Notes under the pieces: generated by a model | Told to the model about the DNA's origin: nothing | The model's input: only the letters and a program-made list of their open reading frames with translations | Database searches by the model: none | Translations under genes and position numbers: made by a program | Part shown: positions 34,154 to 36,986 of the stretch, in pieces | Layout: each line of letters opens with the position of its first letter | How positions within the stretch are numbered: the first letter of the stretch is position 1 | Virus record (IMG/VR): IMGVR_UViG_2737471864_000010 | Location: 1-41,069 of that record | Source of the DNA: a virus | Lineage: Duplodnaviria; Heunggongvirae; Uroviricota; Caudoviricetes | Length of the DNA stretch: 41,069 nt | Strand: one strand, 5' to 3'

Positions 34154-34274
34154 TTCTTACTATCTCCATAGGTAAATAATTTGGGTTTTTATCGTGCACC
34201 ATTGACAGTCATCCTTGACCACGCCGGGCACCCGACCGTATACCGGGCCGTTCGGTACTAAAAGTACATTTTTA

Positions 34275-34505
34275 TTACATAACAAACTGCTGTTTACCGA
34301 TACGGCGAATCTGTGCTGCTGAGTACTTGCCGCCTGATGCCTTGGCGATCTTATCCGCATATTCGGTTTCACCAGTGAACTCGGTACGCGGCAGAGAACC
34401 ACGCTCAAGCCACTTATAGATGGCTTTTGGCGTAAGTCCACAAACATCAGCCACAACAGAAACTCGAACGGATTTGATAACTTCTCCAAACGTAACTTCG
34501 TTCAT
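34275..34505 (-). CDS. cro: Cro-like helix-turn-helix repressor
   Basis: 76 aa, divergent from cI, AGGAGA site 6 nt upstream; helix-turn-helix VADVCGLTPKAIYKWLERG. Confidence 0.6.
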   Translation of the reverse strand: MNEVTFGEVIKSVRVSVVADVCGLTPKAIYKWLERGSLPRTEFTGETEYADKIAKASGGKYSAAQIRRIGKQQFVM

Positions 34506-34520
34506 GCTTCTCTCCTGCGG

Positions 34521-34592
34521 TGAACTTATGGTTCATATTATGACGGAACTGATAGTACAGTCAATACCTAATATAGTTGAACTTATGGTTCA
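34521..34592. promoter_or_regulatory. Immunity control region: two copies of a 15-bp operator palindrome TGAACTTATGGTTCA, PR for cro, and PRM-like promoter for cI
   Basis: Operator copies at about 34521-34535 and 34578-34592; minus-strand PR -35 TTGACT and -10 ATAATA with a 17-bp spacer; plus-strand TAATAT 10 nt before the cI ATG. Confidence 0.6.
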
Positions 34593-35292
34593 ACAGAAAG
34601 AGCGTGAAACTTTCTCGCAGAGGCTTGCGCTGGCCTGTGATAAAGCGGGATTACCTTTGCATGGTAGGCAGGCTGATTTAGCTGTCAGGCTTAAGGTCAC
34701 ACCAAAAGCCATTAGTAAATGGTTCAACGGGGAGTCAATACCAAGAAAAGACAAGATGGAATCTCTGGCTTCGGTGCTGGGAACTACTGCTGCATATCTG
34801 CATGGCTATGCTGATGATGACGGTATCACGGTAAATCATCTATCAAGATCAAATGATTATTATCGTGTTGATGTATTGGATGTTCAGGCGAGCGCCGGGC
34901 CAGGAACCATGGTTTCCAATGAATTTATAGAAAAGATAAGAGCAATTGAATATACGACCGAGCAGGCAAGAATTTTATTTAATGGAAGGCCACAGGAAAG
35001 CGTAAAAGTCATCACGGTTCGCGGTGACAGCATGGAGGGAACCATCAATCCGGGAGATGAGATCTTTGTTGATGTATCCATAACCTGTTTTGATGGCGAT
35101 GGCATTTATGTGTTTGTATACGGGAAAACAATGCACGTTAAGCGCCTGCAAATGCAAAAGAACAGGCTTGCCGTCATCTCTGACAATGCCGCTTATGATC
35201 GATGGTACATAGAAGAAGGTGAAGAAGAGCAACTTCACATTCTAGCCAAAGTCCTCATTAGGCAGTCAATCGATTACAAGCGATTCGGATAA
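34585..35292 (+). CDS. cI: CI-type prophage repressor (N-terminal helix-turn-helix, C-terminal S24 LexA-like autopeptidase domain)
   Basis: Track ORF 34420..35292 trimmed to the ATG at 34585 because the longer form overlaps cro and the promoter; helix-turn-helix QADLAVRLKVTPKAISKWFNG; S24 Ser motif VRGDSMEG and Lys in GKTMHVKRLQ. Confidence 0.85.
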   Translation: MVQQKERETFSQRLALACDKAGLPLHGRQADLAVRLKVTPKAISKWFNGESIPRKDKMESLASVLGTTAAYLHGYADDDGITVNHLSRSNDYYRVDVLDVQASAGPGTMVSNEFIEKIRAIEYTTEQARILFNGRPQESVKVITVRGDSMEGTINPGDEIFVDVSITCFDGDGIYVFVYGKTMHVKRLQMQKNRLAVISDNAAYDRWYIEEGEEEQLHILAKVLIRQSIDYKRFG

Positions 35293-35307
35293 AAATAAAT
35301 TTCCTTA

Positions 35308-35342
35308 AAGTTCACTAACTTATGATGTAGTGAGCTTTTTAT
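35308..35342 (+). terminator. Candidate intrinsic terminator just downstream of cI
   Basis: 10-bp stem AAGTTCACTA/TAGTGAGCTT with a 10-nt loop, followed by TTTTTATA. Confidence 0.4.
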
Positions 35343-35644
35343 ACCCATAAAATGTACTATTGGTACTTTACATTAATGAACTTTAAGTACATCATAAGCC
35401 CATAGACGAACGGCGCGTCTTTAAACCATGCGTCGGGAGCGCGGCGGGTTCAGGATGAACGGCAATGCTGCTCATTAGCGAGAAGGCTTTTTTGCTTTTA
35501 GTCACAAAAAGCAAAGCAGCTTTTTGATATAGAAGTCGTTCGAAAAAATAGAAGTATTTATTGCAAAGATTCAAACCCATTAGGAAACAAAATACATGCA
35601 GTCCAAAAAATAAAATTGTACAGTAAACTACCGTACGGTGCTTA

Positions 35645-35989
35645 TTGGGTATGCTTATGGTGAAAAAGACTATTTATGTTAATCCTGACAGCGGACAAAA
35701 CAGAAAAGTATCTGATAGAGGTCTTACATCTCGAGACAGGAGGAGAATAGCGAGATGGGAAAAAAGGATAGCATATGCATTAAAAAACGGTGTAACACCT
35801 GGATTTAATGCTATAGATGACGGTCCTGAATATAAGATTAATGAAGAACCAATGGACAAAGTTGACAAAGCATTAGCAACACCATTTCCTCGCGATGTCG
35901 AAAAAATTGAAGATGAAAAATATGAGGATGTAATGCACAGAGTTGTTAATCACGCTCACCAACGAAATCCAAATAAAAAATGGTCATAG
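35645..35989 (+). CDS. Candidate N-like transcription antiterminator (arginine-rich motif protein); true start uncertain
   Basis: First gene of the early-left operon; arginine-rich segment TSRDRRRIARWEKRIAYA; followed immediately by a strong intrinsic terminator and more same-strand genes. No sequence match to known N proteins recognised. Confidence 0.35.
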   Translation: MGMLMVKKTIYVNPDSGQNRKVSDRGLTSRDRRRIARWEKRIAYALKNGVTPGFNAIDDGPEYKINEEPMDKVDKALATPFPRDVEKIEDEKYEDVMHRVVNHAHQRNPNKKWS

Positions 35990-36012
35990 CCCACTTCGGT
36001 GGGTTTTTTTGT
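35990..36012 (+). terminator. Intrinsic terminator (tL1-like) immediately after the N-like gene
   Basis: CCCAC-TTCG-GTGGG followed by TTTTTTTG. Confidence 0.8.
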
Positions 36013-36193
36013 TGTCTGAACAAACCTAATTTACTACCGCAAGCCACGCAGTGAAATGGGCGTGACTTGTGTTGGTCGCCAGAAAATGAAATTAGGCAGC
36101 AAACCACTTATTTGAGGTGATATATGGAAGAAGAATTTGAAGAGTTCGAAGAGCATCCGCAGGATGTGATGGAACAATACCAGGACTATCCGT

Positions 36194-36394
36194 ATGACTA
36201 CGACTATTGATAAGAATCAATGGTGTGGACAATTCAAACGATGCAATGGATGCAAGCTGCAATCGGAATGCATGGTTAAGCCTGAAGAAATGTTTCCTGT
36301 AATGGAAGATGGGAAATATGTCGATAAATGGGCAATACGAACGACGGCAATGATTGCCAGAGAACTTGGTAAACAGAATAACAAGGCTGCCTGA
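36194..36394 (+). CDS. ral: Ral-like restriction-alleviation protein
   Basis: 66 aa MTTTIDKNQWCGQFKRCNGCKLQSECMV…, at the position lambda carries ral; identity is from memory and not verified. Confidence 0.5.
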   Translation: MTTTIDKNQWCGQFKRCNGCKLQSECMVKPEEMFPVMEDGKYVDKWAIRTTAMIARELGKQNNKAA

Positions 36395-36528
36395 TGGTAG
36401 CCTTTATTTTTGGCATAAACAACAGAATAAACACTGCACTGTGTATTCATTCCAACGAGTGAATACACGGAGCAATGTCGCTCGTAACTAAACAGGAGCC
36501 GACTTGTTCTGATTATTGGAAATCTTCT

Positions 36529-36558
36529 TTGCCCTCTAATGTGAGGGCAATTTTTTTG
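36529..36558 (+). terminator. Intrinsic terminator within the early-left operon (tL2-like)
   Basis: TTGCCCTC-TAATGTG-GAGGGCAA followed by TTTTTTT, 12 bp before the next gene's ribosome-binding site. Confidence 0.8.
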
Positions 36559-36569
36559 ACGGAGGAATT

Positions 36570-36986
36570 ATGGAAATTACAGATATTCTGGTTAATCCAG
36601 ATAATTACGACCAATTCAATATCTCTACTCAATCAGTTGATTTGGGATGTGCAACTGTCAGCGCATGGCTACTTAATGGTAAACAGTTGGATAAATGCCT
36701 TGATGCACATATGACGGTTAACAACTTCCTTGCAGAAAAAACACACTGGCAAGATGCTGGAGGGAAATATGCTGGATGGCTTGAAAGCATGGGGTTTGAA
36801 TATCAATCTGATGAAGGTTGGTGGAGCCTTATAGCTGTAACGCCTGAGACAATAGAATGCTTCGTTAAATACTCAAACGACGATGACTATAAAAACCAGG
36901 TAGATTCTGCGATAGAAAGATATAAAAGAAAATCATTCAGCCACGAAATATCATCAGTTCTTGATTTCATAGAAGTCTTCAAATAA
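36570..36986 (+). CDS. Hypothetical early protein
   Basis: 138-aa acidic ORF with a GGAGG site; no family recognised. Confidence 0.45.
   Translation: MEITDILVNPDNYDQFNISTQSVDLGCATVSAWLLNGKQLDKCLDAHMTVNNFLAEKTHWQDAGGKYAGWLESMGFEYQSDEGWWSLIAVTPETIECFVKYSNDDDYKNQVDSAIERYKRKSFSHEISSVLDFIEVFK

What the first reader, a model, noticed from the sequence alone, without database searches (positions are those of the whole stretch)
36122..36208. Strongly acidic 28-residue ORF with a good ribosome-binding site just after the tL1-like terminator
My hand reading gives MEEEFEEFEEHPQDVMEQYQDYPYDYDY, preceded by GAGGTGA at ideal spacing and overlapping the start of the ral-like gene. Short acidic, aromatic-rich peptides in early operons are plausible DNA mimics or anti-defence factors. 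It is below the ORF-track cutoff and rests on character-level reading, so it is tentative.
Basis: seen in the sequence. Interest (0 to 1): 0.4.

Follow-up and report, generated by a model that had tools for sequence, protein, structure and literature searches.

The report
Lambda orf28: conserved acidic microprotein gene
The 28-codon acidic ORF is real and is the long-annotated but uncharacterised phage lambda gene orf28; comparison with several hundred related prophages shows that selection preserves the peptide itself and that it travels with restriction-alleviation genes, so it is an old orphan gene with a newly testable role, not a new discovery.

Summary
It has a GAGGTGA ribosome-binding site, sits behind a terminator, and overlaps ral by 17 nt. 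Its product is 100% identical to phage lambda orf28 (lambdap47, NP_040623) and matches PHROG 16060, which has no known function. The object is therefore already known.

New evidence that it is a real gene:
- 147 of 155 distinct ral-upstream sequences keep the ORF, and indels are in frame.
- pN/pS is 0.16 in its frame against about 1.9 in the shifted frames.
- Eight residues are invariant: F8, H11, P12, D14, M16, Y19, Q20, Y22.

It also persists, still under purifying selection (pN/pS 0.05), where ral is absent. There it lies after a Lar-family restriction-alleviation gene, alone behind N, or beside ral pseudogenes. This argues against a mere leader ORF.

Best reading: a microprotein co-translated with Ral from the antiterminated early-left transcript, probably an accessory of the restriction-alleviation module. 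The target and mechanism are unproven, and DNA mimicry is untested. No homologue lies outside this small Enterobacterales prophage family, and no paper found assigns a function. Interest is moderate.

The parts
35645..35989 (+). Nun-like gene occupying the N position of the early-left operon. The start codon is uncertain. The product ends ...NPNKKWS.
   Evidence: Full-length match to phrog_5632 'Nun-like transcription termination factor', E=4e-70. No Pfam hit.
35988..36012 (+).
   Evidence: Terminator scan gives stem 35988-36005 (7 pairs) followed by TTTTTGTTGT. The sequence is shown.
36114..36120 (+). Shine-Dalgarno sequence GAGGTGA of orf28.
   Evidence: Sequence. A purine-rich GAGG / AGGG / GGAG box at the same spacing is kept in all lineages, although the flanks further upstream diverge.
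36124..36210 (+). orf28 coding sequence: 28 codons plus TGA, product MEEEFEEFEEHPQDVMEQYQDYPYDYDY.
   Evidence: - Found.
- 100% identical to lambda orf28, NP_040623.
- Matches phrog_16060, E=7e-19.
- Purifying selection shown.
36194..36210 (+). 17-nt overlap of the orf28 3' end with the ral 5' end. The two genes are in different frames.
   Evidence: The same +14 (or +8) stop offset is kept across the family.
36203..36224 (+). Core of an RNA hairpin just inside ral. It contains the orf28 stop codon (36208-36210) in its 5' arm. It is a candidate element for translational coupling.
   Evidence: - RNA fold of 36095-36260: z = -3.7.
- The hairpin recurs in diverged homologues.
- 89.5% of cells are paired, and 3 pairs change on both sides. 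9/500 shuffles reach the covariation score.
- This is suggestive, not proven.
36194..36394 (+). ral, the restriction-alleviation / modification-enhancement gene (66 aa).
   Evidence: Pfam PF11058 Ral, E=1.6e-48. phrog_1055 'restriction alleviation ral'.
36383..36413 (+). Terminator-like hairpin closing the orf28-ral cassette.
   Evidence: stem 36383-36404, then TATTTTTGGC. In lineages without ral, a terminator of the same kind, with a similar GGCTGCC...GC stem, directly follows the acidic ORF.

Best explanation
**What it is.** This is phage lambda's orf28: a real 28-codon gene for a 3.7-kDa microprotein with net charge -12, rich in Tyr and Phe.

**How it is expressed.**
- It is the first reading frame behind the terminator that follows the N/nun gene of the early-left (pL) operon. 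I infer it is made only once that terminator is read through after induction or infection.
- It has its own ribosome-binding site.
- Its stop codon lies 14 nt past the ral AUG, inside a hairpin. I infer that ribosomes finishing orf28 probably open the ral start and re-initiate there. That would make orf28 and ral a co-translated two-gene cassette closed by its own terminator.

**Why the peptide itself matters (shown).**
- It is the selected product: eight invariant positions (F8, H11, P12, D14, M16, Y19, Q20, Y22) and strong purifying selection.
- It is retained where ral is gone.

**Most likely role (inferred, not shown).** It is an accessory of the phage restriction-alleviation module (Ral or Lar, which act on type IA restriction-modification enzymes). 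It would work by binding a specific partner, either the host enzyme or Ral/Lar itself, through an amphipathic acidic segment plus a Tyr-rich tail.

**My confidence in each step.**
- Real translated gene: about 0.9.
- Translational coupling to ral: about 0.55.
- Role in restriction alleviation: about 0.3-0.35.
For: **Identity.** The product is identical to lambda orf28 and sits in the same position. The PHROG 16060 match is E=7e-19.

**Conservation.**
- 147/155 distinct ral-upstream sequences carry the intact core-motif ORF, and 2 more differ only by a substitution at Q20. They span 61 distinct Ral proteins from Escherichia, Providencia, Kluyvera and unnamed IMG/VR viral contigs. Ral homologues in the protein search are annotated from Salmonella, Proteus, Pantoea, Erwinia, Citrobacter and Cronobacter.
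- Indels are in frame.
- A Shine-Dalgarno box is kept while the flanks diverge.

**Selection.**
- Variable sites at codon positions 1/2/3 are 6/8/20.
- pN/pS is 0.16 in frame against 1.99 and 1.86 in the shifted frames.

**Independence from ral.**
- Nine Lar-linked loci have the order Lar (PF14354, E=5.5e-9), then the peptide, then a terminator, with no ral. There pS=0.52 and pN=0.025.
- L457 and L472 have the peptide alone behind N.
- Ten loci have an out-of-frame 103-nt ral deletion but an intact orf28.

**Link to restriction alleviation.**
- The peptide overlaps two unrelated restriction-alleviation families.
- A published ral plasmid was built with a forward primer that starts at orf28 codon 16, so it lacks codons 1-15. 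It gave 'little to no effect' on EcoKI restriction (PMC9410887).

**Coupling geometry.**. Ral lacking orf28 (L176/L217) is instead ATGA-coupled to another upstream ORF.
Against: - No direct evidence of translation was accessible. The lambda ribosome-profiling paper (Liu et al. 2013) is not held.
- orf28 is dispensable for plaque formation in a CRISPRi screen (PMC10695390). [quoted passage not shown]
- Persistence without ral also fits a function unrelated to restriction. Adjacency to Ral or Lar could be plain synteny of accessory genes behind N.
- AlphaFold2 of a natural orf28-Ral fusion gave pLDDT 60, with no confident contact.
- The hairpin arises from codons of a conserved Ral motif (TIDxNQW). 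Its covariation is modest, and the structure was derived from one of the aligned sequences.
- Ral alleviation is modest by the classical literature (from memory), so the weak plasmid result is not decisive.
Confidence: 0.5

Rival explanations
1. Pure leader ORF. On this view orf28 exists only so that its translation unmasks and feeds the ral start (translational coupling). The peptide would be a by-product without a function of its own.
For: - The 17-nt overlap has a conserved stop offset.
- A hairpin spans the orf28 stop and ral codons 4-11.
- A natural 48-nt deletion (L134/L157) keeps a Shine-Dalgarno box plus a 13-codon remnant ending at the same stop.
- Ral without orf28 is ATGA-coupled to another ORF.
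- A ral construct lacking orf28 codons 1-15 worked poorly.
Against: - Selection acts at the amino-acid level: pN/pS is 0.16 against about 1.9 in shifted frames, and eight positions are invariant.
- The ORF stays under purifying selection where there is no downstream gene to couple to. Examples are Lar, then peptide, then terminator (pN/pS 0.05), and N, then peptide, then terminator.
- It is also kept intact beside ral pseudogenes.
Confidence: 0.13
2. Stand-alone host-takeover or anti-defence peptide unrelated to type I restriction. It would target another host protein, for example a protease, a replication or repair factor, or a different defence system. It would sit next to ral or Lar only because accessory genes cluster behind N.
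For: - It survives without ral in three kinds of context.
- Its most constant neighbour is the N/nun gene with its terminator.
- The invariant motif suggests one specific partner.
- Small lambda pL-operon proteins with host targets are a known pattern, e.g. Orf73 (PMC9239242).
Against: - The physical overlap is with two different restriction-alleviation genes, not with arbitrary neighbours.
- One peptide-only phage (L457) has a weak Lar-like ORF about 5 kb downstream in the same locus (weak, E about 6e-4).
- No candidate target is indicated by any search.
Confidence: 0.25
3. One reading: a miniature DNA mimic. Its carboxylates would imitate the DNA backbone and directly block a restriction or defence enzyme, as Ocr and ArdA do.
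For: - Net charge is -9 to -13 in all 28 variants, with no Lys or Arg in the lambda form.
- It is linked to Ral and Lar.
Against: - At 24-30 residues it is far shorter than characterised mimics (established knowledge: Ocr is 117 aa and ArdA about 166 aa, both dimers).
- Acidic positions interchange freely (E/D, and Q/D/A/S), while the invariant positions are F, H, P, M, Y and Q.
- There is no similarity to any known family or solved structure.
- From established knowledge, unmodified lambda is efficiently restricted by EcoKI, so any block is weak or late.
Confidence: 0.1
4. Chance ORF, or a non-coding element (an RNA or DNA signal) that happens to be open.
For: Short ORFs are abundant here: 47 of at least 20 aa in 2.5 kb. 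NCBI's pipeline does not annotate it in E. coli genomes.
Against: - The substitution pattern is frame-specific.
- Indels are in frame.
- The start codon and ribosome-binding site are conserved.
- There is no Rfam match.
Confidence: 0.02

Closest known systems
Phage lambda orf28 (lambdap47, NP_040623.1; PHROG phrog_16060)
   Same: - The 28-residue sequence is identical.
- The position between the N-region terminator and ral is the same.
- The 17-nt overlap with ral is the same.
   Different: - In lambda the sieB gene lies between N and orf28.
- Here the upstream gene is nun-like and abuts a terminator about 110 nt before the ORF.
- No function is recorded for orf28 in any source found.
Lambda Ral (PF11058) and Rac-type Lar (PF14354) restriction-alleviation proteins
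   Same: They share the cassette, the transcript and overlapping reading frames. The inferred pathway is shared: countering type IA restriction-modification.
   Different: There is no sequence relationship. Ral and Lar are 64-77-aa Cys-rich proteins of near-neutral or basic charge, whereas the peptide is a 28-aa polyanion. It is not a member of either family.
T4 Stp, a 26-residue phage peptide acting on a type I restriction enzyme (recalled from the literature, not tested here)
   Same: It is a precedent that a phage peptide of under 30 residues can modulate a type I restriction-modification complex.
   Different: As recalled, Stp is basic and unrelated in sequence, and it comes from a virulent phage. 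This is a resemblance of scale only.
Acidic DNA-mimic anti-restriction proteins (T7 Ocr, plasmid ArdA)
   Same: Strong negative charge and an early-expressed anti-restriction context.
   Different: - The peptide is 4-6 times smaller.
- There is no homology.
- Its conserved residues are mostly aromatic, or His, Pro and Met, not the acidic ones.
Translationally coupled upstream ORFs (leader ORFs)
   Same: The stop codon lies just past the downstream start, and a hairpin sits over that start.
   Different: The peptide sequence is itself conserved, and the ORF persists with no downstream partner.

Membership tests
Lambda orf28 / PHROG 16060 | Sequence match to the lambda orf28 product and to the family profile | tested here: met
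   100% identity over 28/28 residues. phrog_16060 E=7.1e-19, positions 1-28/28.
Lambda orf28 / PHROG 16060 | Position in the early-left operon directly upstream of ral and overlapping it | tested here: met
   17-nt overlap here and in lambda, DE3 (imm21) and Sf101.
DNA-mimic anti-restriction proteins (Ocr/ArdA type) | High density of surface carboxylates | tested here: met
   12 Asp+Glu of 28 residues, no Lys or Arg. Net charge is -9 to -13 across variants.
DNA-mimic anti-restriction proteins (Ocr/ArdA type) | Homology to a known mimic family or solved structure | tested here: not met
   No Pfam, NCBIfam or PDB match even at E<=1-10. A profile search of 1.84 billion proteins found only the family itself.
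DNA-mimic anti-restriction proteins (Ocr/ArdA type) | Rigid fold displaying charges with B-DNA spacing, and binding in the enzyme's DNA groove | not testable with these tools
   AlphaFold2 of the natural fusion gave pLDDT 60 and about 48-60 over the peptide part.
Leader ORF for translational coupling | Upstream ORF terminates at or just past the downstream start codon | tested here: met
   The stop lies 14 nt (or 8 nt) past the ral AUG in all lineages.
Leader ORF for translational coupling | Downstream start occluded by a structure that the upstream ribosome melts | tested here: inconclusive
   The hairpin at 36203-36224 is conserved: 89.5% paired, 3 pairs changed on both sides, 9/500 shuffles reach the score. 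It is built from conserved Ral codons, and the structure was derived from a member sequence.
Leader ORF for translational coupling | Peptide sequence free to vary, and the ORF meaningless without the downstream gene | tested here: not met
   pN/pS is 0.16. It is 0.05 in the ral-less Lar lineage. Peptide-only loci are L457 and L472.
Ral (PF11058) / Lar (PF14354) | Match to the family profile | tested here: not met
   The peptide has no Pfam hit. Only its neighbours match Ral or Lar.
SSB C-terminal-tail mimic (considered) | Acidic run ending in an invariant C-terminal aromatic residue | tested here: inconclusive
   The last residue is Y in 23/25 variants, with F or N in the others. It is also S, H, or truncated in some natural forms. 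The best-conserved block is internal (FxEHPxDxMxQYQDY), not the extreme C-terminus.

The most novel reading that the evidence does not exclude
orf28 defines a class of ultra-short (about 25-30 aa) phage anti-restriction factors. On this reading it is a conserved acidic peptide that acts as the obligatory partner of Ral- or Lar-type proteins, or acts itself on type IA restriction-modification enzymes. If so, the 40-year-old 'Ral' phenotype of lambda would really be the product of a two-protein module.
Probability: 0.25. Interest if true: 0.7.

Novelty: already known. Interest (0 to 1): 0.35.

Why it matters
Lambda is the best-studied temperate phage, yet orf28 has no assigned function, and NCBI's pipeline does not annotate it at the E. 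coli loci examined. It is present in 883 of 5,426 complete E. coli genomes.

This analysis gives a concrete, cheap hypothesis to test. Selection preserves the peptide, which is co-translated with ral and also linked to the unrelated Lar family.

- If the hypothesis holds, it would revise how Ral-type restriction alleviation is understood. It would also explain why ral cloned without orf28 performs poorly (PMC9410887).
- It would add a very small peptide to the anti-defence repertoire.
- If the hypothesis fails, orf28 remains a well-documented example of a conserved microprotein that standard gene callers and tryptic proteomics miss, since it has no Lys or Arg.

Tried and rejected
- **Direct peptide search.** I used two variants joined head to tail. 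Only the same small family came back, often with spurious upstream extensions or read-through junk.
- **Profile search.** A search of 1.84 billion representatives gave 25 hits, all the same family. The motif is not found in any protein longer than about 80 aa.
- **Other libraries.** Pfam, NCBIfam, PDB sequence and Rfam searches were all empty.
- **Structure.** AlphaFold2 on the natural orf28-Ral fusion P0005, with Ral homologues as the alignment, gave mean pLDDT 60.5 and pTM 0.38. I did not use it for fold search. A block-diagonal alignment that added peptide homologues was misaligned by MAFFT and discarded.
- **Literature.** No paper holds the peptide sequence. 'orf28'/'lambdap47' appear only in strain lists and one CRISPRi table. 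The lambda ribosome-profiling paper (PMC3718152) and the PMC id I guessed for the Casjens-Hendrix review are not held.
- **Host of the Lar-linked lineage.** There is no match among sequenced phages, and only 4 unnamed protein relatives.
- **SSB-tail mimicry.** I considered and set it aside because the extreme C-terminus is not the best-conserved part.
- **Promoter.** I considered a promoter between the terminator and orf28. None was found by the consensus scan.

Full report
**1. The observation**

The window holds an ATG-initiated ORF at 36124..36210 on the + strand, stop included. It translates to MEEEFEEFEEHPQDVMEQYQDYPYDYDY.

Everything else in the description is correct.
- GAGGTGA lies at 36114-36120, and its GAGG core ends 6 nt before the ATG.
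- A hairpin plus T run at 35988-36012 precedes the ORF.
- The last 17 nt overlap a 66-codon gene (36194..36394) that matches Pfam Ral over its full length (E=1.6e-48).
- The product weighs 3.70 kDa and has 12 acidic, 0 basic and 7 aromatic residues.
- A 28-codon ORF is not remarkable in itself. Forty-seven ORFs of at least 20 aa overlap this 2.5-kb stretch, so the case for a gene rests on comparison with related sequences.

**2. What it is**

The peptide is 100% identical to phage lambda orf28 (lambdap47, NP_040623.1, lambda 34271-34357 complement). That gene overlaps lambda ral in the same way.

- The same ORF is annotated 'hypothetical protein' in DE3 (imm21) and Sf101.
- It has its own PHROG family, phrog_16060: a 28-position profile of unknown function, E=7e-19.
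- The DNA occurs in 333 phage records and in 883 of 5,426 complete E. coli genomes. RefSeq's pipeline leaves it unannotated in the examples checked.
- So the object is already known. Its function is not.
  - The only statements I could find are strain lists (delta orf28-ral) and a CRISPRi table scoring it non-essential. [quoted passage not shown]
  - No paper contains the peptide sequence.

**3. Context in this window**

The gene order on the + strand is:
- an S24/HTH repressor (34420..35292);
- a Nun-like gene (35645..35989; phrog_5632, E=4e-70, full length; no N-family hit);
- a terminator;
- orf28;
- ral;
- a second terminator (36383-36404);
- a 138-aa phrog_8967 protein of unknown function;
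- then Erf, Abc2 and Ea22-like genes.

On the other strand lie cII and O. This is the early-left operon of a lambdoid prophage with an HK022-type nun in the N position.

**4. Is it a real gene?**

I collected about 470 related loci through Ral, Lar and degenerate DNA patterns.

- Among 155 distinct 240-nt ral-upstream sequences, covering 61 distinct Ral proteins, 147 carry an intact ORF with the core motif HPxDxMxxYQ[DE]Y ending inside ral. Two more differ only at Q20.
- Named loci come from Escherichia, Providencia (Ral 72% identical) and Kluyvera (61%). Most other loci are unnamed IMG/VR contigs. Ral homologues in the protein search are annotated from Salmonella, Proteus, Citrobacter, Cronobacter, Pantoea and Erwinia.
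- Length changes are all in frame, for example loss of FEE, and 24-26-residue forms.
- A purine-rich Shine-Dalgarno box is kept 5-9 nt before the start, while the sequence further upstream differs between lineages.
- In the 22 codons that do not overlap ral, 50 distinct DNAs vary at 6, 8 and 20 sites of codon positions 1, 2 and 3.
- Pairwise pN/pS is 0.16 in the orf28 frame against 1.99 and 1.86 in the two shifted frames.
- Across 28 peptide variants, F8, H11, P12, D14, M16, Y19, Q20 and Y22 are invariant, and acidic positions swap E for D.

This is purifying selection on a protein.

**5. Leader ORF or functional peptide?**

The geometry favours translational coupling.
- The orf28 stop lies 14 nt (8 nt in some lineages) past the ral AUG.
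- It sits in the 5' arm of a hairpin (core 36203-36224) that begins about 10 nt inside ral.
- On 27 distinct homologues, 89.5% of cells pair and three pairs change on both sides. Covariation is modest: 9/500 shuffles reach it. The stem is built from conserved Ral codons.
- Where Ral lacks orf28 (L176/L217), it is ATGA-coupled to a different upstream ORF. A natural 48-nt deletion (L134/L157) keeps a Shine-Dalgarno box and a 13-codon remnant ending at the same stop.

But the peptide is not only a leader.
- In nine IMG/VR loci the homologous peptide, (M)GEDEFEEHPDDDMSQYQDYP[FY][DE][YF]DY, has no ral after it.
  - It overlaps the 3' end of a Lar-family restriction-alleviation gene (PF14354, E=5.5e-9).
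  - It is followed at once by the same kind of terminator that closes ral here.
  - Within that lineage, pair-summed synonymous differences are 76 against 23 non-synonymous: pS 0.52, pN 0.025.
- Two further loci (L457, L472) have the order N, peptide, terminator, with neither ral nor an adjacent Lar.
- Ten loci carry a recurrent 103-nt out-of-frame deletion inside ral with orf28 intact.
- The most diverged Ral genes (L452, L456) still have the peptide upstream. In L452 it is a 56-aa form with a Cys/His-rich N-terminal extension and its own GGAGG site.

**6. What it most likely does**

- *Shown:* a conserved, selected microprotein gene that physically overlaps genes of two unrelated restriction-alleviation families (Ral, Lar). 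It is placed behind a terminator in the early-left operon.
- *Inferred:* it is expressed with Ral from the read-through transcript, probably by coupled translation. It serves the same task, which is countering type IA restriction-modification, by binding a specific partner through the invariant F-H-P-D-M-Y-Q-Y positions.
- *A published experiment that fits:* a helper plasmid carried 'ral' amplified with a forward primer that anneals at orf28 codon 16, so codons 1-15 are missing. It had 'little to no effect' on EcoKI restriction, while ArdA and Ocr worked (PMC9410887). This fits either coupling or a cofactor role. It is not decisive, because Ral's effect is modest in the classical literature (from memory).
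- *Against over-reading:*
  - The peptide's survival without ral equally fits a function unrelated to restriction.
  - No partner is indicated by any search.
  - AlphaFold2 of a natural orf28-Ral fusion was uninformative, with pLDDT 60.

**7. Comparison with known systems**

- It is lambda orf28 / PHROG 16060, and all membership tests for that family are met.
- It is not a member of Ral, Lar or any known DNA-mimic family.
- It resembles Ocr and ArdA only in charge.
- It resembles T4 Stp only in being a peptide of under 30 aa that acts on a type I enzyme. That comparison is recalled from the literature and was not tested.
- It resembles leader ORFs in geometry, but it fails the expectation that a leader's sequence is free to vary.

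**8. Verdict**

- Novelty: already known as an annotated ORF.
- What is added here is the evidence for selection, the Ral/Lar linkage, the ral-independent persistence, and a set of cheap decisive experiments.
- Interest: moderate (0.35).
- The most novel reading still open is that orf28 is an obligatory peptide partner in lambda's restriction alleviation, or a new ultra-short anti-restriction factor. I give that about 0.25 probability. It would deserve about 0.7 interest if true.

Noticed in passing
window 35645..35989 (+): The gene in the 'N position' is a full-length Nun-like transcription termination factor (phrog_5632, E=4e-70; the product ends ...NPNKKWS), not an N antiterminator. This points to an HK022-type immunity region. 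Read-through of the following terminator into orf28-ral may therefore depend on put-type RNA, not on N. No Rfam match was found in 35300-36700.
   Followed up: partly
L333, L335, L336, L339, L383, L402, L422, L430, L438, L440 (equivalent to window ~36226/36230..36328/36332): A recurrent 103-nt out-of-frame deletion inside ral, at a TGGxCAAT microhomology, occurs in 10 of 116 evaluable IMG/VR loci. orf28 is intact in all of them. This is a widespread ral pseudogene allele.
   Followed up: partly
L350 3559..3865 (-), L442-L450, L418: A metagenomic prophage lineage has the order N-like gene, 62-aa ORF, Lar-family gene (PF14354), acidic peptide, terminator. Only an 8-codon remnant (ITTTEAA*) lies where ral would be. 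A 28-aa hydrophobic ORF (MISTGNYIFGWLVIGVLMGLGFIAGGNG) with a GGAGG site follows the terminator. The host genus is unknown.
   Followed up: partly
P0001 (89 aa, 76 member sequences), P0005: These are orf28-Ral fusion proteins created by loss of one G in CAGGAC, giving ...EQYQ-TIR-MTTTIDK... Whether they are natural variants or assembly errors in read-archive assemblies was not resolved.
   Followed up: no
L452 4001..4171; proteins P0128 and P0138: Longer (51-56 aa) relatives of the peptide carry an N-terminal Cys/His-rich extension (e.g. FEHCGKCRNY...HVC) before the conserved FDEHPxD..QY.DYP core. P0128 has its own strong GGAGG site and sits upstream of a very diverged Ral. The extension may be a zinc-binding ancestral or derived form.
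   Followed up: partly
L134, L157 (upstream of ral): A 48-nt deletion between GAGG/CAGG repeats removes orf28 codons 1-15. It leaves a Shine-Dalgarno box and a 13-codon ORF (MNKYQ[DE]YPY[GD]Y[ND]Y) ending at the usual stop inside ral.
   Followed up: no
window 36570..36986 (+), terminator-like site 36529-36550: The gene after the orf28-ral cassette encodes a 138-aa protein of PHROG 8967 (unknown function, E=9e-87). It has only a sub-threshold AbiJ N-terminal-domain-4 hit (E=0.21). It replaces lambda's ea10 at this position and is preceded by another terminator-like hairpin.
   Followed up: no
E. coli genomes (H31-H42); L473 1211..1290: The orf28 DNA is present in 883 of 5,426 complete E. coli genomes (991 places). 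RefSeq annotation leaves the interval between N and ral empty in the example examined (KSC64), and none of the other 11 listed matches shows a separate feature next to ral there. The ORF is below common gene-caller length limits.
   Followed up: partly
PMC9410887, supplementary primer 4576: The published 'ral' expression construct starts at orf28 codon 16 (ATGGAACAATACCAGGACTATC). It therefore expresses ral behind a truncated orf28, which may explain its weak activity.
   Followed up: partly
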